Under the pieces are notes generated by a model. It had not been told where the DNA came from. It saw nothing but the letters and a program-made list of their open reading frames with translations, and did no database searches. This document shows positions 169 to 41,083 of a stretch of 64,000 bases of DNA, piece by piece. The position numbers were made by a program, and so were the translations under genes. The number at the start of each line of letters is the position of its first letter. Position 1 is the stretch's first letter. This DNA comes from Escherichia phage JLBYU40. Where the stretch lies: sequence record NC_105514.1; one strand, given 5' to 3'.

Positions 169-246
169 TGGTCTCCGTGGGAGGATTTGAACCCCCGACC
201 CTATCGCCCCAAACGAAACGCTCTGGCCAAACTGAGCTACACGGAG
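169..246 (-). tRNA. tRNA-Pro (UGG)
   Basis: Acceptor CTCCGTG/CACGGAG, D-stem GCTC/GAGC, anticodon loop TTTGGGG, T-loop TTCAAAT, CCA encoded. Confidence 0.65.
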
Positions 247-250
247 AATA

Positions 251-409
251 TTATTTCTTTAACCACAGCAAAGATAAGCCCAGCATACTAAAACCGCTAA
301 CTAATCCGATACATTTTTCTTCTATAGTAAAAGTATCTAGATTAAATGCTGTTATAGCTATTGGCATACACCATAATGCCATAAAAACTTGAGATATCTT
401 GTGTTTCAT
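251..409 (-). CDS. small hypothetical protein (about 52 aa, hydrophobic)
   Basis: ATG-to-TAA ORF read by hand on minus strand directly downstream of promoter 431-459; below the 60-aa cutoff of the ORF track. Confidence 0.3.
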   Translation of the reverse strand: MKHKISQVFMALWCMPIAITAFNLDTFTIEEKCIGLVSGFSMLGLSLLWLKK

Positions 410-430
410 TTTGCTTTCCTTCTCTTCACT

Positions 431-459
431 TTATAAAATATATTATACAGATAATAAAG
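431..459 (-). promoter_or_regulatory. sigma70-type promoter (minus strand: -35 TTGCTA, 17 bp, -10 TATAAT)
   Basis: Plus strand shows attata (431-436) and tagcaa (454-459) 17 bp apart inside the conserved AT-rich cassette. Confidence 0.6.
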
Positions 460-620
460 CAGAATAGCAAATGAATTTTTAATAAATTTACTTATTGTGT
501 AGGCCACCTGGAGGCTACCAACCCCACGGCTGACAAAGAAGTTTGCGAGACCTCTCTTAAATGCCAGAATAGACCCGCCGGTCTATCGGAACCTACATAA
601 TAAGTAAACTTTATAGTGTC

Positions 621-740
621 ATTCTAGACAGGACTCGAACCTGTTATCACTTGTGCGGACTTACGAGAACCATTCTTTCACTCGAATCGAACGAGCTTCT
701 GCCCCCGCCAAGCTGGTTTCCCCATCAACCACGCTAGAAT
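621..740 (-). ncRNA. unresolved tRNA-like element (about 120 nt)
   Basis: Perfect 7-bp acceptor pairing ATTCTAG/CTAGAAT, D-like stem TGGT/ACCA, T-arm ACAGG-TTCGAGT-CCTGT, but about 45 extra nt in the middle and no canonical anticodon arm. Confidence 0.3.
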
Positions 741-862
741 GTTTGATTGTTTTCAGTGCAAGAGTCCGAGTCTTGGACACGACCGCTTCGCAAGTACATA
801 GGCGGCTTATCATGAGTCAGCACTTCCGAATTGCTAGCTTCGTGTTCTGCACTGAAATTTTG

Positions 863-1210
863 TTAATTTAATAGTAAAGTACGATCTACTTCACCATTAA
901 TTGTTCGGCATTCTTCTGGGATTGCTGGTGTAGTCTTATATTCCCACCATTCAGAACCATCATATTCACCACGTTCTAACCAAGTTCCATCGGTAAACCA
1001 TACGTTACCATAAAGCAATTGTCCGCCGAAACCAGAATCATATTTAAAGTCTAGATTATCTAGAAAATCTTCAATATCTTTTTCTGTATAACCTACGGGT
1101 AATACCCAAACTTCTTTATCCCCATAATAACCGAATTCTATCTTAATACACTTAACTTCAGAATTAGTATTCTTTAGGGCAAGTAACAATTCTTCTTTAG
1201 CATTAATCAT
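863..1210 (-). CDS. hypothetical protein (115 aa)
   Basis: ORF track; colinear with minus-strand early genes. Confidence 0.5.
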   Translation of the reverse strand: MINAKEELLLALKNTNSEVKCIKIEFGYYGDKEVWVLPVGYTEKDIEDFLDNLDFKYDSGFGGQLLYGNVWFTDGTWLERGEYDGSEWWEYKTTPAIPEECRTINGEVDRTLLLN

Positions 1211-1236
1211 AGCGTATTTCTCGTGCTAGTTTAGTT

Positions 1237-1313
1237 TGGCGCGACCGATGGGATTCGAACCCACATTCTCTCCCGTGACAGGGGAGTACCATTACCAAGC
1301 CAGCCCCGGTCGC
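1237..1313 (-). tRNA. tRNA-Asp (GUC)
   Basis: Acceptor GCGACCG/CGGTCGC, anticodon arm CTCCC-CTGTCAC-GGGAG, T-arm GTGGG-TTCGAAT-CCCAT, CCA encoded. Confidence 0.7.
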
Positions 1314-4150: not shown

Positions 4151-4225
4151 GTGGCTCCCCGAGGATTCGAACCTACGTACCTTCCGGTTATGAGCCGGGT
4201 GCTCATACCATATGAGCTTGAGAAC
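4151..4225 (-). tRNA. tRNA with CAU anticodon (Met or Ile2)
   Basis: Acceptor GGTTCTC/GGGAGCC, D-stem GCTC/GAGC, anticodon arm CCCGG-CTCATAA-CCGGA, T-loop TTCGAAT; no encoded CCA. Confidence 0.5.
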
Positions 4226-4231
4226 CAAAAT

Positions 4232-4342: not shown

Positions 4343-4864
4343 TTAGAAATTTAGCTTCATAGCAAGAAAATTTTTCAAGTTTTCGGTAGACATCTCATCT
4401 ACATCTACAGGAGAAACAAAGCCGTTTAATTTTCTAGCAAATTTTTCACCATCGGGATCATTGTCTCCAACAGCTACCAATTTAAAAGGTAGTAATTTCA
4501 GTTGCTTTAATAACGCTTTTCCTGGAGAAGAACCCAACATTGCTAGGGCTGGATAACCAGCGTTATGTAACGCAACTGCCTTAAATACAGATTCAGCAAT
4601 CAATACTACTTTTTCATCTCCATTGAGAGTTTCTAGTCCCCATACACACTGGGTAGTAGAATAAGTAAAGTATTTAGCTTCAAAGGGGCACTTACCATGA
4701 CCTTTTGGAGCAGAAGGATTATAAGTTTGATAGCCCCTCAACATCCCAGAGAAGTCATACAACGGGACTGTTAGCCATCCTTCTGGACTTAACCAGCAAT
4801 GATATTTATCTGTATCAAATCCCCTAGATAAGAGGTGCTGTGTTAGCTCATCAACATTCATATT
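4343..4864 (-). CDS. Toprim-like domain protein (hypothetical)
   Basis: Motifs IAESVFK and LVAVGDNDPDGEKFARKL resemble a Toprim acidic patch; start moved to MNVDEL. Confidence 0.4.
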   Translation of the reverse strand, partial: NMNVDELTQHLLSRGFDTDKYHCWLSPEGWLTVPLYDFSGMLRGYQTYNPSAPKGHGKCPFEAKYFTYSTTQCVWGLETLNGDEKVVLIAESVFKAVALHNAGYPALAMLGSSPGKALLKQLKLLPFKLVAVGDNDPDGEKFARKLNGFVSPVDVDEMSTENLKNFLAMKLNF

Positions 4865-8433: not shown

Positions 8434-8508
8434 CTTACCGACCGTAGGATTCGAACCTACATCTTCCACCAGTTACGGCTTGATAATACCAATTATACTA
8501 GGACGGCA
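8434..8508 (-). ncRNA. unresolved tRNA-like element
   Basis: T-arm GTAGG-TTCGAAT-CCTAC and partial acceptor pairing, but no canonical anticodon arm found. Confidence 0.25.
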
Positions 8509-30496: not shown

Positions 30497-30713
30497 AAAA
30501 TGGGAAACAAGGAAGTTCCCCGTAAAAGAGCGTAAAGTTCCTGTTTACGATACTTCGGAAAAGCTATGTAGGGTGGTACCGCACAGATTAGCTGGCATCC
30601 CTAACATATCCGAATGGTTACTTAAACAACGGAAAACAAACGTGTCTCTTCGCATCGGCTTTGAGTTAGATAAAGTCTATGCTGAACTTGCTTCTTTGCT
30701 CAAGGAATCGTAA
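30480..30713 (+). CDS. hypothetical protein (about 77 aa)
   Basis: Start at MTVKNKKW after SD GGAGAG. Confidence 0.35.
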   Translation: MTVKNKKWETRKFPVKERKVPVYDTSEKLCRVVPHRLAGIPNISEWLLKQRKTNVSLRIGFELDKVYAELASLLKES

Positions 30714-30721
30714 AAATTTAT

Positions 30722-30750
30722 TTGCTTTCAGGAAAATTTTTCTGTATAAT
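30722..30750 (+). promoter_or_regulatory. sigma70-type promoter (-35 TTGCTT, 17 bp, -10 TATAAT)
   Basis: ttgctt 30722-30727, tataat 30745-30750. Confidence 0.6.
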
Positions 30751-30783
30751 AGATTCATAAATTTGAGAGAGAGGAGTTTAAAT

Positions 30784-31488
30784 ATGGCTGGTTCTCGCAG
30801 AAAGAAACATATCCATGAAATCCCGGATGAAGTCTTTAAAAAAGTTATAGAGCATCTGGAGAACGGTGGTACTAAGAAAGCAGCATGTGAAATGCTTGGC
30901 GTATCATCCAATCCAACTATGGAAAGGATGATTGAAGAATGGCAAGACCGCCAGATTCAAGTTGCCGAGATGAAGAAAAAGAAACGTGGTACACTCATTG
31001 AAGGTATTGAGTTGGCCAACGTTATTGAACAGTATCTATCTGGCGATTCTTTTGAAGAAATTGCCGACCGTAATTACCGCTCTGTAGCAATGGTTAAATC
31101 TGTTCTGGAACGCTATGGTGCTTTGCTTCGTTTGAACGATATTGTAGACCCATTGAATCCTCCAATTATTCCTGATGATGCTGTGGCAGAAGAATTTGAA
31201 GTTGGTGAGCTTGTTTGGGTTCCTGGATACCAGTGTATTGGTGAAATCAAAAAAGCAATGGATAATCCTGTTGGTTGTTACCGTGTTTGGCTTCTATCAG
31301 AAGGCAAACAACAGAACGTCCATTATATGAATTACGAGCTGGCTTCTGTTAAACATCTGGAAAAGTTAGGGGTAGACGTAAAATCTCTAGGGTATAAATG
31401 GACTCGTGAAGAAATTATCACACTGATTAATGAAGCTGTTAAGGCTGCCTTGAAACTTGATAAAGAAAAAGGAAAACGCCGTGAGTAG
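30784..31488 (+). CDS. putative HTH DNA-binding protein
   Basis: Start MAGSRRKK after SD GAGAGGAG; N-terminal HTH-like KKAACEMLGVSSNPTMERMIEEW. Confidence 0.5.
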   Translation: MAGSRRKKHIHEIPDEVFKKVIEHLENGGTKKAACEMLGVSSNPTMERMIEEWQDRQIQVAEMKKKKRGTLIEGIELANVIEQYLSGDSFEEIADRNYRSVAMVKSVLERYGALLRLNDIVDPLNPPIIPDDAVAEEFEVGELVWVPGYQCIGEIKKAMDNPVGCYRVWLLSEGKQQNVHYMNYELASVKHLEKLGVDVKSLGYKWTREEIITLINEAVKAALKLDKEKGKRRE

Positions 31489-31732
31489 ACTAACTGATTT
31501 ACTTAAAGATGGAGAAGTAAAAACTCTGTATCGTAGAAGCTGGGATAATGATAATAATGGCTTAGTGTTACTAACTTTAGATGCTGACTCAGATGTAGCT
31601 ACTCAGCATACCTGGGTAGCCGGTAACTATCCATATAGCGAGGTTGTTTCATTAACAGTATGCGAAGCTATTGCTGACGATTGGGAGGTTGCCAGCATTG
31701 ATGATATGCTCGCTGTTGGCCTGGTGGAGTAA
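31484..31732 (+). CDS. hypothetical protein (GTG start inferred)
   Basis: SD AAGGAAAA then GTG; overlapping ORF-track entry trimmed. Confidence 0.35.
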   Translation, partial: SRLTDLLKDGEVKTLYRRSWDNDNNGLVLLTLDADSDVATQHTWVAGNYPYSEVVSLTVCEAIADDWEVASIDDMLAVGLVE

Positions 31733-31748
31733 CTACTTAAAAATTTCA

Positions 31749-31777
31749 GTTGCTTAATCCTACAATTCTTGATATAA
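31749..31777 (+). promoter_or_regulatory. sigma70-type promoter (-35 TTGCTT, 17 bp, -10 TATAAT)
   Basis: ttgctt 31749-31754, tataat 31772-31777. Confidence 0.6.
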
Positions 31778-31835
31778 TATTCTCATAGTTTGAAAGAACT
31801 ATTCTGTTTAATTCTTAATTAAGGAAATATAAAAT

Positions 31836-32246
31836 ATGACTACTCCAACTCAGTGGACTGATGAACTGTTCGAAAAAATGTCTTCCGAATACGTTGCTCG
31901 TATGGAGCAATTCCCAGAGGATGAACGTCCGGGTGTTAGCATGGAAATTGTTAGCGAAATTGCCCAGGAAAATGGTGTAACTCCGAACGGTTTTCGTATG
32001 AAGCTGACTAAAGCAGGTTTGTATATCAAGAAAGCTGCTGGCTCTGCTTCTAAATCTAGCGCATCTACTGGAGAAAAAGCTTCCGGTGGTTCTCGTACCT
32101 CCAAAGCCCAAGCTCACGCCGATCTTCGCTCAGCATTCTCTGATGCTGGCCTAGCACCAGATTTTCTGGATAATGCAATTATCGACAAACTGACCGGTAA
32201 AGCGGCTGCTCATCTGGCAGAAGCAATCCGAGCTATCACTAAGTAA
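31836..32246 (+). CDS. hypothetical protein (136 aa)
   Basis: ORF track; SD AAGGAAA upstream. Confidence 0.5.
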   Translation: MTTPTQWTDELFEKMSSEYVARMEQFPEDERPGVSMEIVSEIAQENGVTPNGFRMKLTKAGLYIKKAAGSASKSSASTGEKASGGSRTSKAQAHADLRSAFSDAGLAPDFLDNAIIDKLTGKAAAHLAEAIRAITK

Positions 32247-32282
32247 TTTTTAGATAAATCCACCAACAAAAGGAACACAGTT

Positions 32283-32579
32283 ATGACCAAAGCTGAAATT
32301 ATCGCACAATGTGAAAAATTTGGTGAGTTTTATCTTCATTATGAGAAACTTCGTCAGAAAGGAACCACGTACCTTCAGGGTACGATGGAATTTGATCCAG
32401 CCCAAGATAAATATCTAGCTGAGCGTATTAAACGTGAACGTATTCGTAAAGCGAAAGATGATGAGATCCTTGTCTTCTCTCGTACTAATGATAGCTTCCG
32501 TTTTATTCCTGTCGAGAAAGTCCGTCGTGTGACTAGCCTCCAATCAGAGTTAGATCGTGCTTCTCCAGTAGGCCGATAA
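32283..32579 (+). CDS. hypothetical protein (98 aa)
   Basis: ORF track. Confidence 0.5.
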   Translation: MTKAEIIAQCEKFGEFYLHYEKLRQKGTTYLQGTMEFDPAQDKYLAERIKRERIRKAKDDEILVFSRTNDSFRFIPVEKVRRVTSLQSELDRASPVGR

Positions 32580-32629
32580 GAAACCAATTAGCCCCTATAT
32601 GGGGCTTTTTGTGTATTTGGAATATGTAA

Positions 32630-32938
32630 ATGAGCGAACAGGTAAATCAAAACTATGAAGGACACGTTGATGACCAGTCCATCATACTTTGGGAGAAGGA
32701 GGGAGAACAAGTAAGATTAACAGTATCTGAATTTCGTGGGAATCTATACATGGGTATTCGTTACTGGCTTCTTGATATTAATGATGAATGGTTTCCAACG
32801 AAATCTGGCTTCTCTTTTCCTTACACCCTAGAAACAACATCACAGCTTTTCTATGCGTTTACACAGATTCTTAGCGAATCTGAGGTTTTACATGAAGTAC
32901 AGAAACGAGCTGAAGAACTCAAAGCCAAGAATGCCTAG
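32630..32938 (+). CDS. hypothetical protein (102 aa)
   Basis: ORF track. Confidence 0.5.
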   Translation: MSEQVNQNYEGHVDDQSIILWEKEGEQVRLTVSEFRGNLYMGIRYWLLDINDEWFPTKSGFSFPYTLETTSQLFYAFTQILSESEVLHEVQKRAEELKAKNA

Positions 32939-32955
32939 TTCTTGGCTTTTTCTTT
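32924..32955 (+). terminator. rho-independent terminator
   Basis: GCCAAGAA/TTCTTGGC 8-bp stem then TTTTTCTTT; overlaps stop codon. Confidence 0.6.
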
Positions 32956-32965
32956 ATAAATGTAT

Positions 32966-32994
32966 TTGCTTTCAACTCAGTTTTATTATATAAT
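32966..32994 (+). promoter_or_regulatory. sigma70-type promoter (-35 TTGCTT, 17 bp, -10 TATAAT)
   Basis: ttgctt 32966-32971, tataat 32989-32994. Confidence 0.6.
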
Positions 32995-33024
32995 ATTTAT
33001 ATAAATTAATGAGAGGGTTGCAAA

Positions 33025-33297
33025 GTGAAAAAGATAAATATAAGCACACTTAAACCTTTCCCATACATCGGACAGCCTCTTATACTTATGTGGGAGGAGA
33101 AGATTAATGGAGAAAAGTATACTAAAATTAGAAGCGGGTATAAGCTGATTTCACTTCATTACGAAAAAGAAGTATTAACAGCTGAAATATACTCTCCGTT
33201 GTCAGATAGGCTAGTAAAAACTACGTATTTGCATCTCTGCAAAAATTTTACATGGCACGGATCCACTAGACAGCTCACGTACTATGAGGCAGAATAA
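33025..33297 (+). CDS. hypothetical protein (90 aa, GTG start)
   Basis: SD GAGAGGG 7 nt before GTG. Confidence 0.4.
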   Translation: MKKINISTLKPFPYIGQPLILMWEEKINGEKYTKIRSGYKLISLHYEKEVLTAEIYSPLSDRLVKTTYLHLCKNFTWHGSTRQLTYYEAE

Positions 33298-34269
33298 ATG
33301 ACTAATGTAAAAGAATTTATCAAACGTTGCCAAGAAGCGTATTACCAGGGAATGTCTTTAATTTCTGACGAAGAATATGATCGTCTGATTAAAAGATTTC
33401 CGTTAGAAGAAGAGATCGGGCCTAAGGGTGATATTCCACATCTGTACCGTATGTATTCTTTACAGAAAGTTTATTATAACCGTGGGGATAAACCACCATT
33501 TAATCCTTTAGGTCAGGTAGAAACTGATAAGTTAGATGGTTGTGCAATTTCTCTGCTATATATTAATGGCGAATTTGTTCAAGCATTAACCCGTGGTAAT
33601 GGTATTCTGGGGAATGATGTCACAAGCAACGTAAGATTGCTGAACATCCCTAAAAAGATTTCCCAAAAAGTACCTACCCAAATCACTGGTGAAGTTCTAA
33701 TTACAAAGGAAGTAGAAAATAAGCGTAACTTTGCCTCTGGTGCTATTAACCTCAAAGATAGCGATGATTTCGTACAACGTATCGGGGAAGGTGGTTTAAT
33801 CTTCGTTGCATATGGTATCCAGTGTTCCCCTGATTCTGTAGGTATTACAGAATCGTATTTAAAAGATATGCTTTGGCTAGAGAATGAGAACTTCTTAACA
33901 GTTGTTAATGTGCGTTCCTTCTTTAAGTGGATTCCGACGGATGGTAAAGTTGTTCGTATTAATGACAACAACAAATTCTTCCGAGAAGGCTGGACTAATA
34001 AATTCCCCCGTGGAGCATTTGCTATTAAAGAGGATGAAGAAGGCGAGATTACAACTCTTACTAAAGTTGAGTGGCAGGTAGGGGCTTCTGGTAAAGTAAC
34101 TCCAGTTGGTTATTTCGAACCGGTAATTATTGATGATGCTACAATTGTTAAAGCGACTCTTAATAACGTTGATTATATTAACTCTCTCGATCTAGAGATC
34201 GGTTGCCAGATTCGAGTGATTCGTGCTGGTGGTGTAATCCCGTGTATAGTAGAGCGAGTATACGATTAA
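33298..34269 (+). CDS. NAD-dependent DNA ligase, N-terminal (adenylation) part
   Basis: KxDG adenylation motif (TDKLDGCAIS) and NAD-ligase-like N-terminus. Confidence 0.75.
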   Translation: MTNVKEFIKRCQEAYYQGMSLISDEEYDRLIKRFPLEEEIGPKGDIPHLYRMYSLQKVYYNRGDKPPFNPLGQVETDKLDGCAISLLYINGEFVQALTRGNGILGNDVTSNVRLLNIPKKISQKVPTQITGEVLITKEVENKRNFASGAINLKDSDDFVQRIGEGGLIFVAYGIQCSPDSVGITESYLKDMLWLENENFLTVVNVRSFFKWIPTDGKVVRINDNNKFFREGWTNKFPRGAFAIKEDEEGEITTLTKVEWQVGASGKVTPVGYFEPVIIDDATIVKATLNNVDYINSLDLEIGCQIRVIRAGGVIPCIVERVYD

Positions 34270-34412
34270 TACATAACCCTTTGCTACCCATCTACCATAT
34301 CGGAATTATAAAGTGGTTATTGACATTTTCGCCGCTTAGGTATATACTATTATCATTCAGTTGAGGGATAGAAAGTTATGGCGAGGGTAAGCAAAGTTAG
34401 TTAAAATTGTAA

Positions 34413-34441
34413 TTGCTAAATGCTTAAATACTTGCTATAAT
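34413..34441 (+). promoter_or_regulatory. sigma70-type promoter between the ligase halves (-35 TTGCTA, 17 bp, -10 TATAAT)
   Basis: ttgcta 34413-34418, tataat 34436-34441; a second TTGACA/TATACT pair near 34320-34348. Confidence 0.55.
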
Positions 34442-34468
34442 ATTTATATAAATTGATAAGGAAGAAAT

Positions 34469-35251
34469 TTGATGAAAATCGAAATTCCAACACAATGTCC
34501 CTCTTGTGGTTCTAAGCTAGATCTTGTCAACGGACAATTATTCTGTCGTAATAAGTCCAACTGTCCAGCGCAATCAAGTAAGTTAATTGAGAACTTCTGT
34601 ACAAAAATGAAGTTAAAGGGCTTTGGCCCGAAAACTATTGAGAAGCTGGAGCTGACGAAGATTTCAGAACTATTTTACCTAGCCGAAGAAGCTTTGGTTA
34701 GAGCCGTGGGTAGCAAGGTTGCCGCTAAGTTAATTAGCGAATTAAATACTAAAGTTCGCGGAGACATTGACTTTGGTTCAGTTCTCGGTTCTTTAGGAAT
34801 CCCTCTAATTGGAGAGGTTGCAGCAAAGAAATTATCCCAAAATTGCACCAGTTTTCACGATGTGAAGGCTGATGGCAAAGCTGGAGAAAACTATAAAGCC
34901 TGGCTAAATTCCCCACAAGGCAAGGATGTTATCGAATTACCGTGGAAATTCACAACTGGTATTAAAGGTGCTAAAACTGAGGTCATCATCACTGATGGTC
35001 TAGTAGCCCAACCAAATGGAATCACGGTGTGTATTACCGGATCTTTGCAAGATTTTGCAAATCGAACGGATGCAACAAACTATTTAGAAGGTCTAGGATA
35101 TACGGTTAAGAAATCCGTTACCAAAGATGTCAAATACCTAATCTGTGAGGATGAATCAAAACGTTCTTCCTCATCTTATAAGAAAGCCGAAACGAATGGG
35201 ATAGAAATCCTGTCGATTAAAGAACTATTGGAGAAAAATAATAATGTCTAA
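34469..35251 (+). CDS. NAD-dependent DNA ligase, C-terminal part (Zn-finger / HhH / BRCT-like)
   Basis: CPSCGSKL...CRNKSNCPAQ zinc-finger pattern and HhH-like GFGPKTIEKL. Confidence 0.7.
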   Translation: MMKIEIPTQCPSCGSKLDLVNGQLFCRNKSNCPAQSSKLIENFCTKMKLKGFGPKTIEKLELTKISELFYLAEEALVRAVGSKVAAKLISELNTKVRGDIDFGSVLGSLGIPLIGEVAAKKLSQNCTSFHDVKADGKAGENYKAWLNSPQGKDVIELPWKFTTGIKGAKTEVIITDGLVAQPNGITVCITGSLQDFANRTDATNYLEGLGYTVKKSVTKDVKYLICEDESKRSSSSYKKAETNGIEILSIKELLEKNNNV

Positions 35252-36011
35252 ACTGAACTGGAACGTAGAAGGTGTAACCGAGTCTCTGAAAGCAAAAGCC
35301 ACTGCTCTGGGTGTTGCTGTAATCTCTCAAGAACAAGTAGCTGCTATTGCTGCTGAACTGGCTGCTGAAACTGGCAAAGATGTTACTGCTCGCTCTGTTG
35401 GCTCTAAACTGCGTAAAGAAGGTTTCGAAGTACAGAAAGCTAACGAAGTACAGAAATCTCCGTGGACTCCTGAGCAGGAAGCTGAACTGGTTGATTTCCT
35501 GAACGCTCATGCTGGTCAGTATACTTATGCTGAAATCGCTGCTGCTGTAGCTGGTGGTCAATTTGGTGCTAAGCAGGTACAGGGTAAGATTCTGAGTCTG
35601 GAAATGACCGCTTCTGTTAAACCAACCGAAAAAGCTGCTGCTGTTCGTTCCTTCACTCCGGATGAAGAAACTGATTTTGTTAATCAGGTTGTTGCTGGTG
35701 CTACTATTGAAGCTATCGCTGCTCACTTCGGTCGTAATATCAAGCAGATCCGCGGTAAAGCTCTGAGCCTGCTTCGTGAAGGTCGTATCGCCGCTATGCC
35801 GGTACAGGAAACCTCAAGTGCTAAAACTCGTGAAGATCTGTTAGAAGGTCTGGATCTGGTTAACATGACTGTTGCTGAGATCGCTGAGAAAACTGGTAAA
35901 TCTGAGCGCGGTGTTAAATCTATGCTGTCTCGTCGTGGTCTGGTTGCTAAGGACTATGATGGTGCCGCTAAGCGTGCTAAACTGGATGCAAAAGCTGCGG
36001 CTGCTGAATAA
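35244..36011 (+). CDS. putative abundant DNA-binding protein with three internal repeats
   Basis: Three about 55-aa repeats each ending in an HTH-like segment; codons skewed to highly expressed usage. Confidence 0.5.
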   Translation: MSKLNWNVEGVTESLKAKATALGVAVISQEQVAAIAAELAAETGKDVTARSVGSKLRKEGFEVQKANEVQKSPWTPEQEAELVDFLNAHAGQYTYAEIAAAVAGGQFGAKQVQGKILSLEMTASVKPTEKAAAVRSFTPDEETDFVNQVVAGATIEAIAAHFGRNIKQIRGKALSLLREGRIAAMPVQETSSAKTREDLLEGLDLVNMTVAEIAEKTGKSERGVKSMLSRRGLVAKDYDGAAKRAKLDAKAAAAE

Positions 36012-36028
36012 TCTGGTAAATTAAACCT

Positions 36029-36060
36029 AAGGGGAGGGGGCTATGCTCCTTCCCCTTTTT
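36029..36060 (+). terminator. rho-independent terminator
   Basis: GGGGAGG...CCTTCCCC hairpin then TTTTT. Confidence 0.55.
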
Positions 36061-36093
36061 GCATTTAGAAGGCACGAAAGCGTGCAAAGGAGA

Positions 36094-37566
36094 ATGACCT
36101 TGTTTAACGTGCAAGCTGTAGTGTTGAAGATGCTTCTAGCTTCCGAACAGAAGCAAATAGCATTGGAAACATTCTCAAAACTGCATAAAGATCATTTTAA
36201 TGACGCTTTCTCCTCAATTTACCAAGCCGTCCAGAATTATTATAAAAAATATAACACAATGCCGTCCATTGATGCACTGATGCTTGAGGCTAATAGGAAC
36301 GCCCGCCTTTCTCAAGCTCTAGTCGTTTTAGCTAACACTCAAATTCCAGAAGTTAGCATGGAACAGGCACTTGAAGTCCTAGAGGCCGAGTATACACAGG
36401 ATTTATTCCTGAAGCTTCTAGAAACAGACGTGCTTCAAGATTTAACAATGCTGGATCAGGGAGAAATTCTTAACCGAGTTGCCTCCCTTCACTTAAAATT
36501 AGAAGAGAAAGTAACGAATACTGGAAAAGTATTCAACGCAGATAACATGCGTATTTTCCAGAGAGAAGAAGATACCAAACTGAACTTAATCGCTCTTGGT
36601 ATTTGTAATGAGTTCGACGCTCAAATTGGTTTAGCTCGCACAGAAACGTTACTGCTTGGTGGTTGGCGTGGTACTGGTAAATCCATTATCTGTTCAAACA
36701 TACAGGTTCAGCAATATTTGAATGGGGATATTGCTCCATACTTCTCAATTGAGATGAAAGAACATGAAGTATTTAGACGTAATCTAGCCATGTTAGCCGG
36801 TGTATCAGCACTAGCAATGCGTAATAATACTCTAGAAGGTGCAGCTCTGTTGAGATTAGCCAGAACTAGAGCTAGGATGTTTAATGGTGGTGAAGAGCTT
36901 TTCGATAACTTCGTTAAACAGTACACAATGGCTAAGATGAGTGATTTCTACGATATGGAAAGTAAGCTAATAGAAGGATATGAGCTACATACTCCTATGA
37001 TTATTGTTTATGATCCTGAGCTGTCTATTACAACAGTTGACGTAGAATTAAATAAATTAGTTGCTAGATATGGGGATAAAGTTACAGTAGCTTTACTGGA
37101 CTATATTAACCAAACCCGACTTCCAGACTCTAAAACCATTGATATGTATGACTGGAAAGAACAGATGGTTGTTAGCTCGTCTTTCAAATCTATCTGCCAG
37201 AAACATAACGTGGCTGGTGTAGCCCCTTACCAGATTGATCAAGATGGTAGAACACGTATGTCAAAGGGGATTCTTGATTCCGCAGACATGGCTGCTAATC
37301 TTAATGCTGCAAAAGCTGATAATGGTCAAGGTGCTATTATGTTTGACTTCGTTAAGACTCGTTCTTCTGATAGCGTGAAGTTTATGCCTAAAATGAACTG
37401 GGAAACCCTACGGATGGATAACACTACCAACCTAGCAATGGAAGATATATCTCAAATGGAAGCTGAGTTCGTTATCCCTATTGAGAAGGATAAGCCGGCT
37501 CAATCTAAACGTGCTAAGAAAGACAAAGCTGAAAATTCAACGGGTGAACAGGCCAGCGATATATGA
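36094..37566 (+). CDS. DnaB-like replicative helicase (RecA-fold ATPase)
   Basis: Start MTLFNV after SD AAAGGAGA; Walker A GGWRGTGKS, DnaB-like C-terminal domain. Confidence 0.65.
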   Translation: MTLFNVQAVVLKMLLASEQKQIALETFSKLHKDHFNDAFSSIYQAVQNYYKKYNTMPSIDALMLEANRNARLSQALVVLANTQIPEVSMEQALEVLEAEYTQDLFLKLLETDVLQDLTMLDQGEILNRVASLHLKLEEKVTNTGKVFNADNMRIFQREEDTKLNLIALGICNEFDAQIGLARTETLLLGGWRGTGKSIICSNIQVQQYLNGDIAPYFSIEMKEHEVFRRNLAMLAGVSALAMRNNTLEGAALLRLARTRARMFNGGEELFDNFVKQYTMAKMSDFYDMESKLIEGYELHTPMIIVYDPELSITTVDVELNKLVARYGDKVTVALLDYINQTRLPDSKTIDMYDWKEQMVVSSSFKSICQKHNVAGVAPYQIDQDGRTRMSKGILDSADMAANLNAAKADNGQGAIMFDFVKTRSSDSVKFMPKMNWETLRMDNTTNLAMEDISQMEAEFVIPIEKDKPAQSKRAKKDKAENSTGEQASDI

Positions 37567-38453
37567 GTAGAATAACAGAACTACTTGATCTGAAAGGCAT
37601 TGAATATAAAGACACAGGTGGGGACATCCTCATCTGTTGTCTCAATCCAGATCATGACGATAAACACCCAAGTTTGCGTATTGACCCTGAAACAGGTATT
37701 ATGCACTGCTTGAGTTGTGGCTTCGGTAAAGGTATACCGAGCATTTACCACTATTTTAATGAGACTCAGTACCGACAGTCCCCAAGGCTATCGCAAGTAC
37801 GTAAAAAGATTTCAGAGATTAGGAATGGATCAACGAATCTTGCAATTCCTGAATCTGCTTGCCTTTTCGAAGGTGATTTCCGAGGTATAAGTTCTAAGAC
37901 CTTGAAGAAATATTTTGCTTTCCAACACCAAGCAGACTGGGAAGGCAGAATTGTATTCCCAATCACAGATGCTGTTGGACGCAATATCCTATTTTTGGGT
38001 CGTTCTATAAACAGTTCTGCCCCTCCTAAATACTTAGTAAAACCAAAACAAGTTTCACCGCCAATTTTTCCTGTACGATATAATACTCCAGTCCTTATTC
38101 TAGTTGAAGGCATCTTTGATATGCTGAACCTAGAGGATAATGGTATAGACTATGCTTCTTGCTGCTTTGGTACACATCAGTTTACTTCGGATAACATTGC
38201 AGATAAGTTCAGTCCTTATATTATTGCCGGTGTAAAAGTTGTTGTTATCTTACTAGATAATGATGCTTCTGGTAATAAAGCTGCACAAGCATTGGCCAAG
38301 CTAATTCGTACAAAAACGCGTTTAACACCTATAGTTGCTAACTTTCTTCTGCCTGAAGGTAAAGACCCTGGTGACTTAAATAAAGAAGAGATTGATATGT
38401 TAGCAAAACGTATTGAAATTTTAGTTGCTGAATCGCTTAAAGATTTGGTATAA
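37563..38453 (+). CDS. DNA primase (DnaG-like: CHC2 zinc finger plus Toprim)
   Basis: Zn-finger CCLNPDHDDKHPSLRIDPETGIMHCLSCG; Toprim EGIFD...LLDNDASG. Confidence 0.8.
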   Translation: MSRITELLDLKGIEYKDTGGDILICCLNPDHDDKHPSLRIDPETGIMHCLSCGFGKGIPSIYHYFNETQYRQSPRLSQVRKKISEIRNGSTNLAIPESACLFEGDFRGISSKTLKKYFAFQHQADWEGRIVFPITDAVGRNILFLGRSINSSAPPKYLVKPKQVSPPIFPVRYNTPVLILVEGIFDMLNLEDNGIDYASCCFGTHQFTSDNIADKFSPYIIAGVKVVVILLDNDASGNKAAQALAKLIRTKTRLTPIVANFLLPEGKDPGDLNKEEIDMLAKRIEILVAESLKDLV

Positions 38454-38454
38454 T
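38425..38454 (+). promoter_or_regulatory. sigma70-type promoter with extended -10 (TTGCTG, 18 bp, TGgTATAAT)
   Basis: Lies within the 3' end of the primase gene, upstream of the polymerase start. Confidence 0.45.
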
Positions 38455-38515
38455 ATATTGGTAAGTTAGAGAAGAAACACTGAAGTTATACTTGCTTACC
38501 AAGAGGAGATTAAAT

Positions 38516-41083
38516 TTGAAAATCGCAGTAGTTGATAAAGCTCTAAATAACACTCGTTATGATAAACATTTCCAGTTATACGGCGAGGAAGTTGATGTAT
38601 TCCATATGTGTAACGAGAAGTTGTCCGGTCGTTTGCTCAAAAAGCATATTACTATCGGGACTCCGGAAAACCCATTTGACCCGAATGATTATGATTTTGT
38701 TATACTAGTAGGTGCTGAACCTTTCCTGTACTTCGCAGGTAAGAAAGGCATTGGTGACTATACTGGTAAACGTGTAGAGTATAATGGATATGCTAACTGG
38801 ATTGCGAGTATCAGCCCAGCCCAGTTACACTTTAAGCCTGAAATGAAACCAGTTTTTGATGCAACAGTAGAGAATATCCACGATATTATCAATGGTCGTG
38901 AGAAGATTGCAAAAGCTGGTGATTACCGTCCTATTACTGACCCTGACGAGGCGGAAGAATATATCAAGATGGTGTATAGTATGGTTATCGGACCTGTCGC
39001 ATTCGACTCCGAAACCTCAGCATTATACTGTCGAGATGGTTATCTGCTTGGTGTTTCTATATCTCACCAAGAGTATCAGGGTGTGTATATTGATTCTGAT
39101 TGTCTCACAGAGGTTGCAGTATATTATCTCCAGAAAATTCTGGATAGTGAAAACCACACTATTGTTTTTCACAACTTGAAGTTTGATATGCACTTTTATA
39201 AGTACCATCTGGGACTTACATTTGATAAAGCACATAAAGAACGCAGGCTCCATGATACCATGTTGCAGCATTATGTTCTAGATGAGCGTCGTGGTACTCA
39301 TGGCTTGAAATCTCTAGCAATGAAGTACACCGATATGGGTGACTATGACTTTGAACTAGATAAGTTCAAGGATGATTACTGCAAAGCACATAAAATCAAG
39401 AAAGAAGATTTCACCTATGATTTAATTCCGTTTGATATTATGTGGCCTTACGCTGCAAAAGATACCGATGCTACCATACGTTTACACAACTTCTTCTTAC
39501 CAAAAATTGAGAAGAATGAAAAACTTTGCAGTCTGTATTATGATGTCCTAATGCCTGGTTGTGTATTTCTCCAGCGTGTTGAGGATCGTGGTGTACCAAT
39601 TTCTATTGATCGCTTGAAAGAAGCACAGTACCAGTTAACTCATAATCTGAATAAAGCTCGTGAGAAGCTGTATACTTATCCAGAAGTAGTTCAGCTAGAG
39701 AAAGATCAGAATGAAGCATTTAATCCTAACTCTGTTAAGCAGCTACGTGTTCTTCTATTTGATTATGTTGGCTTAACTCCAACAGGTAAATTGACGGATA
39801 CTGGAGCAGACTCTACAGATGCAGAAGCTCTGAATGAACTGGCTACGCAGCATCCAATTGCTAAAACTCTGCTAGAGATTCGTAAGCTGACTAAGCTGAT
39901 CTCTACTTACGTTGAGAAAATTCTTCTGAGCATTGATGCTGATGGTTGCATTCGTACTGGCTTCCACGAACACATGACTACTTCTGGTCGTCTGAGTTCT
40001 TCTGGTAAGCTGAACCTGCAACAGTTACCTCGTGATGAATCTATTATCAAGGGTTGTGTAGTAGCTCCTCCTGGGTATCGTGTAATCGCATGGGACTTAA
40101 CAACTGCGGAAGTTTATTATGCTGCTGTTCTATCTGGTGATAGAAATATGCAACAGGTATTTATCAACATGAGAAATGAACCTGATAAATACCCTGACTT
40201 CCACTCTAACATCGCACACATGGTATTTAAGCTCCAATGCGAACCTCGTGATGTTAAAAAGTTATTCCCAGCTCTGCGTCAAGCAGCTAAAGCAATTACC
40301 TTTGGTATTTTGTATGGTTCTGGCCCAGCTAAAGTAGCTCATTCTGTTAACGAAGCTCTTCTGGAGCAGGCTACTAAGACAGGCGAACCGTTTGTAGAGT
40401 GTACTGTTGCAGATGCTAAAGAGTACATTGAAACTTACTTCGGTCAGTTCCCGCAGCTTAAGCGTTGGATTGATAAGTGCCACGATCAGATCAAGAATCA
40501 TGGATTTATCTATAGTCACTTTGGTCGTAAACGTCGTCTGCATAATATCCACTCCGAAGACCGTGGTGTTCAGGGTGAAGAAATCCGTTCTGGATTTAAC
40601 GCAATCATTCAGTCTGCTTCTTCTGATAGCCTCCTTTTAGGTGCGGTAGATGCAGATAATGAGATCATTTCTCTTGGCCTAGAACAAGAGATGAAGATTG
40701 TTATGCTAGTTCACGACTCCGTAGTTGCTATTGTTCGTGAAGACTTGATTGATCAATACAATGAAATCCTGATTCGTAATATTCAGAAAGACCGTGGTAT
40801 CAGTATTCCTGGCTGTCCGATTGGTATTGATTCAGATTCTGAAGCTGGAGGTTCTCGTGACTATTCTTGTGGTAAGATGAAGAAACAGCACCCATCAATC
40901 GCTTGTATTGATGATGATGAATATACTCGTTATGTCAAGGGTGTATTACTTGATGCAGAGTTCGAGTATAAGAAACTAGCTGCAATGGATAAAGAGCATC
41001 CAGATCATAGCAAATACAAGGATGATAAGTTTATTGCTGTATGTAAAGATCTGGATAACGTGAAAAGGATTCTCGGTGCTTAA
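38516..41083 (+). CDS. DNA polymerase, family A with 3'-5' exonuclease domain
   Basis: TTG start after SD AAGAGGAG gives 855 aa; exo motifs near VAFDSETS; polymerase motifs ...KAITFGILYGSG and LVHDSV. Confidence 0.9.
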   Translation: MKIAVVDKALNNTRYDKHFQLYGEEVDVFHMCNEKLSGRLLKKHITIGTPENPFDPNDYDFVILVGAEPFLYFAGKKGIGDYTGKRVEYNGYANWIASISPAQLHFKPEMKPVFDATVENIHDIINGREKIAKAGDYRPITDPDEAEEYIKMVYSMVIGPVAFDSETSALYCRDGYLLGVSISHQEYQGVYIDSDCLTEVAVYYLQKILDSENHTIVFHNLKFDMHFYKYHLGLTFDKAHKERRLHDTMLQHYVLDERRGTHGLKSLAMKYTDMGDYDFELDKFKDDYCKAHKIKKEDFTYDLIPFDIMWPYAAKDTDATIRLHNFFLPKIEKNEKLCSLYYDVLMPGCVFLQRVEDRGVPISIDRLKEAQYQLTHNLNKAREKLYTYPEVVQLEKDQNEAFNPNSVKQLRVLLFDYVGLTPTGKLTDTGADSTDAEALNELATQHPIAKTLLEIRKLTKLISTYVEKILLSIDADGCIRTGFHEHMTTSGRLSSSGKLNLQQLPRDESIIKGCVVAPPGYRVIAWDLTTAEVYYAAVLSGDRNMQQVFINMRNEPDKYPDFHSNIAHMVFKLQCEPRDVKKLFPALRQAAKAITFGILYGSGPAKVAHSVNEALLEQATKTGEPFVECTVADAKEYIETYFGQFPQLKRWIDKCHDQIKNHGFIYSHFGRKRRLHNIHSEDRGVQGEEIRSGFNAIIQSASSDSLLLGAVDADNEIISLGLEQEMKIVMLVHDSVVAIVREDLIDQYNEILIRNIQKDRGISIPGCPIGIDSDSEAGGSRDYSCGKMKKQHPSIACIDDDEYTRYVKGVLLDAEFEYKKLAAMDKEHPDHSKYKDDKFIAVCKDLDNVKRILGA

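What the first reader, a model, noticed from the sequence alone, without database searches (positions are those of the whole stretch)
621..740. 120-nt tRNA-like element with perfect acceptor helix but an interrupted core
Positions 621-627 and 734-740 form a perfect 7-bp acceptor-type pairing, with a T-arm (ACAGG-TTCGAGT-CCTGT) and a D-like stem, but about 45 extra nucleotides sit where a 17-nt anticodon arm should be, including a second T-loop-like motif (TTCGATT). It could be an intron-containing or permuted tRNA, a fused tRNA pseudogene, or a tRNA-mimic RNA.
Basis: seen in the sequence. Interest (0 to 1): 0.5.

Follow-up and report, generated by a model that had tools for sequence, protein, structure and literature searches.

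The report
Phage T5 tRNA-like RNA2 gene
This is the minus-strand gene for "RNA2", a tRNA-shaped RNA already annotated in phage T5 whose anticodon loop is replaced by a conserved folded module; its job is unknown, but relatives turn out to be widespread in phage tRNA gene clusters.

Summary
Window 620-740 (minus strand) encodes a 121-nt tRNA-like RNA with a 7-bp acceptor stem, D arm, 5-bp anticodon stem, 4-nt variable loop and T arm. A 55-nt insert (654-708) replaces the 7-nt anticodon loop.

The window is a T5-like phage. The element is the orthologue of T5 rna2, which NC_005859 annotates as "tRNA-like stable RNA with unknown functions". So the locus itself is already known.

It is neither a pseudogene nor an intron-bearing tRNA. 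Across 39 distinct homologues, 92-94% of stem positions pair and 25-28 of 30-33 pairs show compensatory changes. The insert is the most conserved part. These homologues come from Demerecviridae, T4-like Acinetobacter phages, jumbo-phage contigs and metagenomes.

The insert folds as a small three-way junction: a 4-bp hairpin with a T-loop (G-UUCRAUU-C), next to an invariant AUGGU pentaloop closed by a covarying pair. It also has an invariant GUAA bulge.

Members sit in tRNA arrays on the tRNA strand but usually lack the genomic CCA that 96% of neighbouring tRNAs carry. Rfam has no family for it.

Best reading: a non-decoding tRNA mimic, excised by tRNA-processing enzymes, that displays a second "elbow". 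Its partner is unknown, and T5 tolerates its loss in the laboratory.

The parts
620..740 (-). Whole RNA2-family gene: acceptor 5' end at 740 to discriminator G at 620 (121 nt)
   Evidence: Model R1 hit at 93 bits, E 5e-21, full length. About 96% identical to T5 rna2. Annotated in NC_005859 as rna2.
734..740 (-). Acceptor stem, 5' strand (ATTCTAG)
   Evidence: Pairs with 621-627. All 7 pairs show compensatory changes across the family.
714..731 (-). D arm: stem TGGT/ACCA, loop TGATGGGGAA containing GG
   Evidence: All 4 stem pairs covary. Coordinates verified.
709..713 (-). Anticodon-stem equivalent, 5' strand (GCTTG)
   Evidence: Pairs with 649-653. All 5 pairs covary, 96-98% of cells paired.
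654..708 (-). Conserved 55-nt module that replaces the 7-nt anticodon loop
   Evidence: Holds 21 of the 26 invariant columns of module alignment A6. Module-only model R2 scores the module with its closing stem (649-713) at 60.6 bits, E 1.7e-14, with no other copy in the window.
701..704 (-). GGGC, pairs with GUCC (657-660): first helix of the module
   Evidence: G:C, G:C and G:U are invariant. The fourth pair switches U:A <-> C:G but is U.U in 12 of 30 sequences, so support is weak and rests mainly on conservation.
681..695 (-). Inner hairpin CTCG-TTCGATT-CGAG: 4-bp stem with a T-loop-type 7-nt loop closed by an invariant G:C
   Evidence: 100% of cells paired, 3 of 4 pairs covary, loop GTTCRATTC invariant. 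A putative fifth outer pair is not supported.
668..674 (-). A-AUGGU-U: invariant AUGGU pentaloop (669-673) closed by a covarying pair (674:668)
   Evidence: An unbiased column-pair scan found the flanking pair: U:A 24, A:U 9, C:G 2, 97% canonical. Confirmed.
661..665 (-). Invariant CGUAA. The C pairs with the invariant G at 699 and GUAA (661-664) is left as a 4-nt bulge. The neighbouring pair 698:666 covaries.
   Evidence: G:C in 30/30. Next pair U:A 15, A:U 6, G:C 5.
657..660 (-). GUCC, 3' strand of the first module helix
   Evidence: See 701-704.
649..653 (-). Anticodon-stem equivalent, 3' strand (CAAGT)
645..648 (-). Variable loop (GATA)
   Evidence: Segment parse. Coordinates verified.
628..644 (-). 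T arm ACAGG-TTCGAGT-CCTGT
   Evidence: 4 of 5 pairs covary, 97% of cells paired.
621..627 (-). Acceptor stem, 3' strand (CTAGAAT). Followed by discriminator G (620), then ACA rather than CCA.

Best explanation
SHOWN. The locus is the orthologue of bacteriophage T5 rna2. It is one member of a broad family of phage RNAs: a complete tRNA body (acceptor, D arm, 5-bp anticodon stem, variable loop, T arm) whose anticodon loop is replaced by a conserved module of about 52-55 nt. The module is a small three-way junction. It has a short helix (GGG:UCC), an invariant GUAA bulge, two more base pairs, a 4-bp hairpin with a canonical T-loop (G-UUCRAUU-C), and an invariant AUGGU pentaloop closed by a covarying pair. 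The gene sits on the tRNA strand inside the tRNA cluster, has no promoter or terminator of its own, and has no anticodon loop. Unlike its neighbour tRNAs, it has no encoded CCA.

INFERRED.
- It is co-transcribed with the tRNA operon.
- It is cut out by the enzymes that mature tRNAs: RNase P at the 5' end, and 3' trimming, possibly followed by CCA addition.
- The tRNA body acts as a processing and stability scaffold. This is the natural counterpart of the engineered 'tRNA scaffold'.
- The molecule cannot decode.
- The working part is the module. The T-loop and the GG of AUGGU probably dock on each other as the T- and D-loops do in tRNA. This would make a second 'elbow' at the end of a lengthened anticodon arm.
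- That module would engage a partner conserved across many bacterial hosts, acting as a decoy or adaptor for something that reads tRNA shape.

The partner is not identified. The RNA is dispensable for T5 growth in laboratory E. coli, which fits an accessory or conditional role.
For: Identity:
- The window is T5-like.
- NC_005859 annotates rna2 as 'tRNA-like stable RNA with unknown functions' in the same tRNA-Pro ... CDS ... tRNA-Asp context.
- The alignment is about 96% identical.

Structure:
- 17-sequence registered alignment: 94.1% of cells paired vs 59.8% in shuffles; covariation 0.904 vs 0.204, reached by 0 of 500 shuffles; 25 of 30 pairs compensatory.
- 39 distinct sequences aligned by the model: 91.7% vs 56.2%; slid partners give 32-48%.
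- An unbiased pair scan recovers all helices and adds two pairs inside the module.

tRNA frame:
- Rfam's tRNA model hits the L170 member at 44.8 bits, with 55 nt in place of the 7-nt anticodon loop.
- Ordinary tRNAs score 14-39 bits on R1 and members score 40-96 bits.

Breadth:
- Demerecviridae of Escherichia, Salmonella, Klebsiella, Pantoea, Providencia and Proteus; T4-like Acinetobacter phages; 164-363 kb contigs; about 29 metagenome contigs.

Context:
- Members are always on the tRNA strand, often 0-10 nt from a tRNA.
- 214 of 224 neighbour tRNAs encode CCA, against 2-3 of 23 members.
- There is no promoter or terminator between the upstream CDS and the RNA.

Other:
- The module occurs only inside tRNA frames, once per locus.
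- No conserved neighbouring protein apart from homing endonucleases.
- No E. coli homologue or antisense match.
- Dispensable: T5Mos lacks 30661-38625, which includes rna2 (PMC11464382).
Against: - No expression, end-mapping or binding data were available here. 'Stable RNA' rests on the GenBank note alone.
- The T-loop/GG docking cannot be tested by covariation, because the nucleotides involved are invariant.
- Thermodynamic folding of the module alone is not better than shuffles (z from -1.7 to +0.4).
- The first module helix has little covariation.
- Three lineages do encode CCA, so charging or CCA-dependent interactions are not excluded.
- My registered alignments were built to maximise pairing, and the model alignment is fitted to the structure. 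Both lean towards it.
Confidence: 0.55

Rival explanations
1. The invariant UGGU of the pentaloop base-pairs in trans with the universal 3' ACCA end of (uncharged) tRNAs. T-box antiterminator bulges (UGGN) and the RNase P L15 loop (GGU) do this. On this reading the RNA is a sponge, sensor or protector of tRNA 3' ends, not a self-contained second elbow.
For: AUGGU is invariant in 30 of 30 module sequences and sits in a loop closed by a covarying pair. UGGU is the exact complement of ACCA (direct reading). That T-box and RNase P pair with CCA in this way is established knowledge, not tested here.
Against: - The same GG lies next to a T-loop hairpin carrying all the conserved elbow nucleotides, which gives a simpler intramolecular explanation.
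- A 5-nt loop can offer only about 3-4 pairs.
- No target-side evidence exists.
- The members' own discriminators vary (G, A, U, C) without any change in UGGU, so pairing in cis is unlikely.
Confidence: 0.12
2. The element is only a tRNA-shaped processing signal. It recruits RNase P and 3' nucleases to cut the polycistronic early transcript, and the excised RNA has no function of its own.
For: It lies between a CDS and further RNAs with no promoter or terminator of its own. The tRNA frame is preserved by covariation.
Against: A punctuation mark needs only the acceptor and T arm. Here the most conserved part is the 55-nt insert. It has 21 invariant positions shared by phages as distant as T5-like, T4-like and jumbo phages. 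Neighbouring true tRNAs already provide processing sites, often 0-10 nt away.
Confidence: 0.1
3. It is a precursor tRNA with a short unconventional intron. Removing about 48 nt would leave RUCCGCA as an anticodon loop (U33, anticodon CCG = Arg), giving a decoding tRNA.
For: ARAGORN in intron mode calls three canonical-bodied members as tRNA-Arg(ccg) with 46-48 nt introns. The last 7 nt of the module do have U at the second position.
Against: - There is no ARAGORN call for the window, T5, Pantoea or Klebsiella copies. Other members get Phe, Ser, Gly or Pro with different intron positions.
- Position 37 would be C, where tRNAs carry a purine (established knowledge).
- UCC is engaged in the invariant GGG:UCC helix.
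- There is no group I core and no bulge-helix-bulge.
- The 'intron' is more conserved than the 'exons', the reverse of what is normal.
- T5's record describes a 125-nt stable RNA.
Confidence: 0.05
4. It is a decayed or fused tRNA pseudogene, or the region is protein-coding. ORFs at 653-871 (+) and 661-813 (-) are annotated as 'hypothetical protein' in related phage records.
For: Overlapping ORFs of 72 and 50 aa exist. Many records annotate a hypothetical protein under the match. The inner hairpin resembles a second T arm.
Against: - Compensatory base-pair changes occur in 25-28 pairs.
- Length is conserved at 112-127 nt and the module core is invariant across hundreds of phages and metagenomes.
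- Variable junction lengths of 2-5 nt would break any reading frame.
Confidence: 0.02

Closest known systems
Bacteriophage T5 rna2 (locus T5s06, NC_005859 32959-33083), 'tRNA-like stable RNA with unknown functions'
   Same: Orthologous gene: about 96% identical, same strand, same neighbours (tRNA-Pro, small ORF, rnaIV, rna2, CDS T5.067, tRNA-Asp).
   Different: Nothing structural. The window copy differs by a few substitutions. The record gives only coordinates and a note, with no structure or function.
Canonical elongator tRNA (Rfam RF00005)
   Same: A 7-bp acceptor stem, D arm with GG, 5-bp anticodon stem, variable loop and T arm with a UUCGA T-loop. Located in a tRNA array. The Rfam tRNA model hits a canonical-bodied family member at 44.8 bits.
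   Different: There is no 7-nt anticodon loop, no U33 and no anticodon; 55 nt stand in their place. No encoded CCA, although 96% of neighbour tRNAs have one. The window copy is missed by ARAGORN and by RF00005 even at E<=10.
Engineered 'tRNA scaffold' for recombinant RNA (Ponchon and Dardel; PMC3753655)
   Same: Works like it: a structured RNA is inserted in place of the anticodon loop of a tRNA, so the chimera is processed and stabilised by the tRNA machinery.
   Different: That is a laboratory design. This is a natural, conserved phage gene, and that it is processed the same way is inferred, not shown.
tmRNA tRNA-like domain
   Same: A tRNA mimic in which the anticodon arm is replaced by other RNA. 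It is processed by RNase P and has a T arm.
   Different: No G3:U70, no tag reading frame, no pseudoknot ring, about 120 nt rather than about 360 nt. A true D stem is present. Not called by ARAGORN or Rfam.
Phage T4 species 1 and 2 RNAs (rnaC, rnaD) and T5 rna1
   Same: Small stable RNAs of unknown function encoded in phage tRNA clusters. rnaC and rna1 have tRNA-like T arms.
   Different: Not homologous by the models. rnaC scores only 20.7 bits on R1 and nothing on the module model; rnaD and rna1 give no hit.
tRNA-elbow readers built from T-loops (T-box stem I platform, RNase P S-domain, ribosomal L1 stalk)
   Same: They use T-loop motifs and GG/UGG elements that contact tRNA elbows or CCA ends. 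This could explain what the module touches.
   Different: This is recalled from the literature as a lead only. The module has a single canonical T-loop, not an interdigitated pair, and no sequence or model match was found.

Membership tests
T5 RNA2 family (orthologues of T5 rna2) | Sequence homology to T5 rna2 over the full length | tested here: met
   About 96% identity to NC_005859 32963-33083. R1 scores are 93 bits for the window and 91.6 bits for T5.
T5 RNA2 family (orthologues of T5 rna2) | Same genomic position in the T5-type tRNA region | tested here: met
   tRNA-fMet, tRNA-Pro, small ORF, promoter P13a equivalent, rnaIV homologue, RNA2, CDS, tRNA-Asp.
T5 RNA2 family (orthologues of T5 rna2) | Accumulates as a stable RNA of about 125 nt in infected cells | not testable with these tools
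   Known only from the GenBank note. No expression data were available.
Canonical tRNA | Cloverleaf with 7-bp acceptor stem, D arm and T arm with T-loop | tested here: met
Canonical tRNA | 7-nt anticodon loop with U33 and an anticodon | tested here: not met
   55 nt lie between the two strands of the anticodon stem. One search shows 55 nt in place of 7 in a relative.
Canonical tRNA | Recognised by tRNA gene finders and models | tested here: not met
   No call from ARAGORN or its intron mode, none from RF00005 at gathering score, and none at E<=10 for the window copy.
Canonical tRNA | 3' CCA, encoded as in the neighbouring phage tRNAs, and aminoacylation | tested here: not met
   The discriminator G is followed by ACA. 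12 of 12 tRNAs in the window encode CCA. Post-transcriptional CCA addition and charging cannot be tested here.
Intron-containing tRNA | Group I intron catalytic core, or a bulge-helix-bulge splice motif | tested here: not met
   No Rfam intron hit at E<=10. The insert is 55 nt. The unpaired segments flanking the first module helix face each other and are not staggered.
Intron-containing tRNA | Excision leaves one consistent, functional anticodon loop across homologues | tested here: not met
   Residual loops are 6-8 nt without U33. ARAGORN intron mode gives five different isotypes and variable intron positions.
tmRNA | Alanine identity pair G3:U70, tag-peptide frame, detection by ARAGORN or Rfam | tested here: not met
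   Pair 3:70 is U:A. Variable junction lengths exclude a conserved frame. No tmRNA call.
T4 species 1/2 RNAs (rnaC, rnaD) | Homology to rnaC or rnaD | tested here: not met
   On R1, rnaC scores 20.7 bits and rnaD gives no hit. R2 gives no hit in the T4 tRNA region.
Other curated RNA families (Rfam 15, e.g. Y RNA-like, C4 antisense RNA) | Match to any Rfam covariance model | tested here: not met
   Only three junk hits with E>7 in window 240-1240, none overlapping 620-740. For L170 there is only the tRNA model, with a 55-nt insertion.

The most novel reading that the evidence does not exclude
T5 RNA2 would be the founding member of an undescribed, widespread class of phage 'two-elbow' tRNA mimics. 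These are tRNA bodies that carry a second T-loop/GG elbow where the anticodon should be. They would act in trans as decoys or adaptors for machinery that reads tRNA shape. Candidates are a tRNA-targeting defence nuclease, RNase P, the ribosome or a tRNA-end binder. This would be a new RNA-based strategy in the phage-host conflict over tRNAs.
Probability: 0.25. Interest if true: 0.8.

Novelty: already known. Interest (0 to 1): 0.45.

Why it matters
The small stable RNAs in the tRNA clusters of T4 and T5 have been known for decades without a function. Phage tRNA clusters are now recognised as counter-defence loci: T5 tRNA-Lys acts against PARIS and T5 tRNA-Tyr against retron/Septu nucleases (PMC11464382, PMC11555353).

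This work shows that RNA2 is not a T5 oddity. It is one member of a broad family under structural constraint. The family has a defined architecture and a short list of invariant nucleotides: the inner T-loop, AUGGU and the GUAA bulge. That makes the question directly testable by point mutation, pull-down and probing.

It also flags a systematic annotation gap. Hundreds of T5-like genomes leave the locus blank or call a spurious ORF across it, and Rfam has no model for it.

Tried and rejected
- **Standard detectors.** ARAGORN, Rfam at gathering score and Rfam at E<=10 made no call on the locus. This is uninformative about absence, because the 55-nt insert defeats them.
- **Single-sequence folding.** The z-score is -1.4 for the whole RNA and -1.7 to +0.4 for the module alone. 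The MFE folds disrupt the conserved hairpin, so I did not use them.
- **Cellular homologues.** A core-pattern scan of 185,579 genomes gave 120 hits. All lack the T arm and the inner hairpin, so they are chance matches. The scan was truncated, so absence is not proven.
- **Chance viral hits.** L033, L035, L036, L159, L161, L163 and L166 were discarded.
- **Default MAFFT alignment.** It mis-registered the 5' half. I replaced it with a segment parse and N-padding.
- **Homology with T4 rnaC/rnaD and T5 rna1.** This was suggested by shared short strings and rejected by both models.
- **Resemblance to the tRNA-Tyr anticodon arm.** CCGUAAAUCCGC resembles the 3' half of the E. coli tRNA-Tyr anticodon arm in 9 of 11 positions. 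My own estimate puts this at about chance level given the number of possible comparisons, so I dropped it.
- **Resemblance to 16S rRNA helix 45.** GGUAACCGUA matches the 5' strand, but only in members where the variable junction happens to read AAC. Rejected.
- **Mini-ORF starting at the AUG of AUGGU.** Junction lengths vary by 2-5 nt, so no frame is conserved.
- **Conserved partner protein nearby.** Only NUMOD3 homing endonucleases recur.
- **Antisense target or homologue in E. coli.** No match.
- **Literature.** Eight searches found no functional study of T5 RNA2.

Full report
**What is there.** All 14 tRNAs detected in the window lie on the minus strand (ARAGORN; Rfam), so the finding has to be read on that strand. 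Read that way, 740-620 is ATTCTAG-CG-TGGT-TGATGGGGAA-ACCA-GCTTG-[55 nt]-CAAGT-GATA-ACAGG-TTCGAGT-CCTGT-CTAGAAT-G. That is a perfect 7-bp acceptor stem, a D arm, a 5-bp anticodon-type stem, a 4-nt variable loop, a T arm and a discriminator. A 55-nt insert stands where the 7-nt anticodon loop should be. The insert contains a second T-loop hairpin, CTCG-TTCGATT-CGAG. Neither ARAGORN nor Rfam, even at E<=10, calls anything here.

**Identity.** The first 9 kb of the window are 95-97% identical to T5-like phages (Demerecviridae). The T5 reference record NC_005859 annotates two features between tRNA-Pro and the CDS upstream of tRNA-Asp. One is a misc_RNA 'rnaIV'. The other is 'rna2', "tRNA-like stable RNA with unknown functions", 125 nt long. 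The window element aligns to rna2 at about 96% identity in the same context. So the locus is an already annotated gene. Only that record labels it: in hundreds of other T5-like genomes the place is blank or covered by a 'hypothetical protein'. Those ORFs correspond to 653-871 (+) and 661-813 (-) in the window.

**A family, not a one-off.**
- Blastn showed that the core of the element is also present in Pantoea, Klebsiella, Providencia and Proteus T5-like phages, and in T4-like Acinetobacter phages 133 and Acj9.
- Pattern scans of IMG/VR with progressively relaxed cores added contigs of 164-363 kb and many smaller ones (read).
- One metagenome scan gave 34 loci. I searched 29 with the model and the other five appear to be the same contigs as viral loci already held. 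Of the 29, 28 were confirmed and L194 gave no hit.
- The 120 hits returned from cellular genomes lack the tRNA frame and are chance matches. That scan was truncated, so absence from bacteria is not proven.
- The uncultivated members have textbook tRNA bodies: U8-A9, a D loop with A14/GG/A21, N26 and a 5-nt variable loop.
- Rfam's tRNA model hits one of them at 44.8 bits, explicitly with 55 nt in place of the 7-nt anticodon loop.

**Structure by covariation.** I parsed each sequence into segments and registered the alignment as A4.
- The six helices pair in 94.1% of cells, against 59.8% in shuffles and 29-46% when partners are slid.
- 25 of 30 pairs carry two-sided changes. The covariation score is 0.904 against 0.204, reached by 0 of 500 shuffles.
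- A covariance model built on this alignment (R1) scores members at 40-96 bits and ordinary tRNAs at 14-39 bits. It finds exactly one member per locus, including one in the window (93 bits, E 5e-21).
- On the model-based alignment of 39 distinct sequences the figures hold: 91.7% against 56.2%.
- Both alignments lean towards the structure, because one was chosen to maximise pairing and the other is fitted to the model. The margin is nevertheless large, and an unbiased scan of all column pairs recovers the same helices.

**The module.** The insert is the best-conserved part of the molecule. Its invariants are GGG, one G, G-UUCRAUU-C, AUGGU, CGUAA and CCGC. The unbiased scan added two covarying pairs (confirmed):
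- one just inside the GGG:UCC helix (U:A 15, A:U 7, G:C 7);
- one formed by the bases flanking AUGGU (U:A 24, A:U 9, C:G 2).

The picture that results is as follows. The anticodon stem leads to an internal loop (NYRA opposite GCA), then to the GGG:UCC helix. This helix is supported mainly by conservation, and its fourth pair is U.U in 12 of 30 sequences. Next comes a 4-nt GUAA bulge, then two more pairs, and then a three-way junction. The junction carries a 4-bp hairpin with a T-loop and an AUGGU pentaloop closed by a Watson-Crick pair. A fifth outer pair of the hairpin is not supported.

Every nucleotide that builds the elbow of a real tRNA is duplicated in the module. These are G53:C61, U54, U55, C56, R57 and A58 in the T-loop, and G18 and G19 in the D loop. 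I therefore infer that the two loops dock on each other to form a second elbow at the tip of a lengthened anticodon arm. Because these bases never vary, covariation cannot test this. Energy folding of the module alone is uninformative.

**Context and likely biogenesis.**
- In 23 loci, members always lie on the tRNA strand, and tRNAs are found nearby in 21 of them. The gap to the next tRNA is often 0-10 nt.
- 214 of 224 neighbouring tRNAs encode CCA. Only the Pantoea and Klebsiella members clearly do; the Providencia member does only if its acceptor stem is read one base shifted.
- In the window, the only good sigma-70-like site (470->442, minus strand) lies downstream and corresponds to T5 promoter P13a. 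There is no terminator.
- So the RNA is most likely co-transcribed with its neighbours and excised by RNase P and 3' processing. This is inferred.
- A module-only model (R2) finds the module nowhere else in the window. It is absent from the other T5 'stable RNAs' and from the T4 rnaC/rnaD region.
- No protein gene other than NUMOD3 homing endonucleases recurs near it.
- No E. coli sequence resembles it or its complement.

**What it is not.**
- *Not a pseudogene or fusion.* Compensatory changes and an invariant insert argue against decay.
- *Not coding.* Junction lengths vary by 2-5 nt.
- *Not tmRNA.* Pair 3:70 is U:A, there is no reading frame and no detector calls it.
- *Not an intron-bearing tRNA.* There is no group I core and no bulge-helix-bulge, and the residual loops are 6-8 nt without U33. 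ARAGORN in intron mode is silent on the window, T5, Pantoea, Klebsiella and L175 copies and gives Phe, Arg, Ser, Gly and Pro for other members.
- *Not related to T4 species 1/2 RNAs*.

**How it probably works.** It cannot decode. The tRNA body is kept in shape but not in sequence, which is what a processing and stability scaffold needs. It is the natural analogue of the engineered tRNA scaffold (PMC3753655). The module is kept in sequence across phages of very different hosts, which points to a partner that is itself conserved. I favour a trans-acting mimic whose second elbow engages something that reads tRNA shape. A rival reading is that UGGU pairs with tRNA 3' ACCA ends, as T-box and RNase P RNAs do.

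T5Mos, a viable laboratory strain, lacks 30661-38625 and hence rna2 (PMC11464382). The RNA is therefore accessory under laboratory conditions. That fits the current view of phage tRNA clusters as conditional, often counter-defence, loci (PMC11464382, PMC11555353), but neither paper mentions this RNA. No functional study was found in the held library.

**Verdict.** The locus itself is already known as T5 RNA2, so novelty is low. What was not evident before, as far as I could find, is the breadth of the family, its covariation-backed architecture and the defined invariant module. These give the finding moderate interest and make a decades-old unknown experimentally tractable.

Noticed in passing
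window 494-600 (-): Homologue of T5 rnaIV ('stable RNA with unknown functions'), 18 nt downstream of RNA2. It folds into a closed multi-branch structure (MFE -38.3 kcal/mol, z = -2.5) and has no Rfam match.
   Followed up: partly
window 745-862 (-): The stretch between the upstream CDS (863-1210) and RNA2 is unannotated. It is closed by a predicted stem of about 12 bp (UUUCAGUGCA.. / ..UGCACUGAAA; MFE -32.9, z = -1.7). It may be another structured RNA or a processing element. T5's record annotates nothing there.
   Followed up: partly
window 4152-4226 (-) and 8436-8507 (-): Two Rfam tRNA hits (40.3 and 35.5 bits) that ARAGORN does not call. The first corresponds to T5 tRNA-Ile2(CAU), which phage Elw annotates as tRNA-Met(cat). 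The second lies in the region homologous to T5 'rnaX', a 719-nt 'stable RNA with unknown functions'.
   Followed up: no
window 653-871 (+) and 661-813 (-): ORFs of 72 and 50 aa overlap the RNA gene. Many related phage records annotate a 'hypothetical protein' here. These are very probably mis-annotations of the RNA2 locus.
   Followed up: partly
L003 2946-3072 (Acinetobacter phage 133), L157 1472-1583 (Acj9), L162 3046-3162: The T4-like Acinetobacter-type members keep the module and the T arm. Their 5' part is AUACC(A/U)(A/U)GGUGGAAG, with no D stem and only a 4-6 bp acceptor stem. In two of them the core ends CCAUA, not CCGCA. This is a reduced variant of the frame.
   Followed up: partly
L205 5111-5225 (+): A second, divergent insert-bearing tRNA-like element lies in the same metagenome contig as a regular member (41 bits on R1). 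It has an inner T-loop hairpin and UUGGU but no CGUAA. It may be a sister class.
   Followed up: no
L002 about 4535-4565 (-), T5 rna1: T5's other 'tRNA-like stable RNA' (rna1) contains GAGATA-AATGGTC-TATCTC just before its T arm. That is a 6-bp hairpin whose loop also displays AUGGU. T4 rnaC has GATATGGTTGAGATATGG. The models do not link these RNAs to RNA2, so this may be a shared loop motif or a coincidence.
   Followed up: partly
23 member loci: Phage tRNA genes in these arrays encode their 3' CCA in 214 of 224 cases (96%), and every tRNA lies on one strand.
   Followed up: yes
L001 (Escherichia phage Elw) versus window 1210-1240: A close relative carries an extra tRNA-Lys(ctt) and a small ORF between the CDS and tRNA-Asp, both absent from the window. 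This shows indel turnover within the tRNA cluster, often next to homing-endonuclease genes.
   Followed up: no
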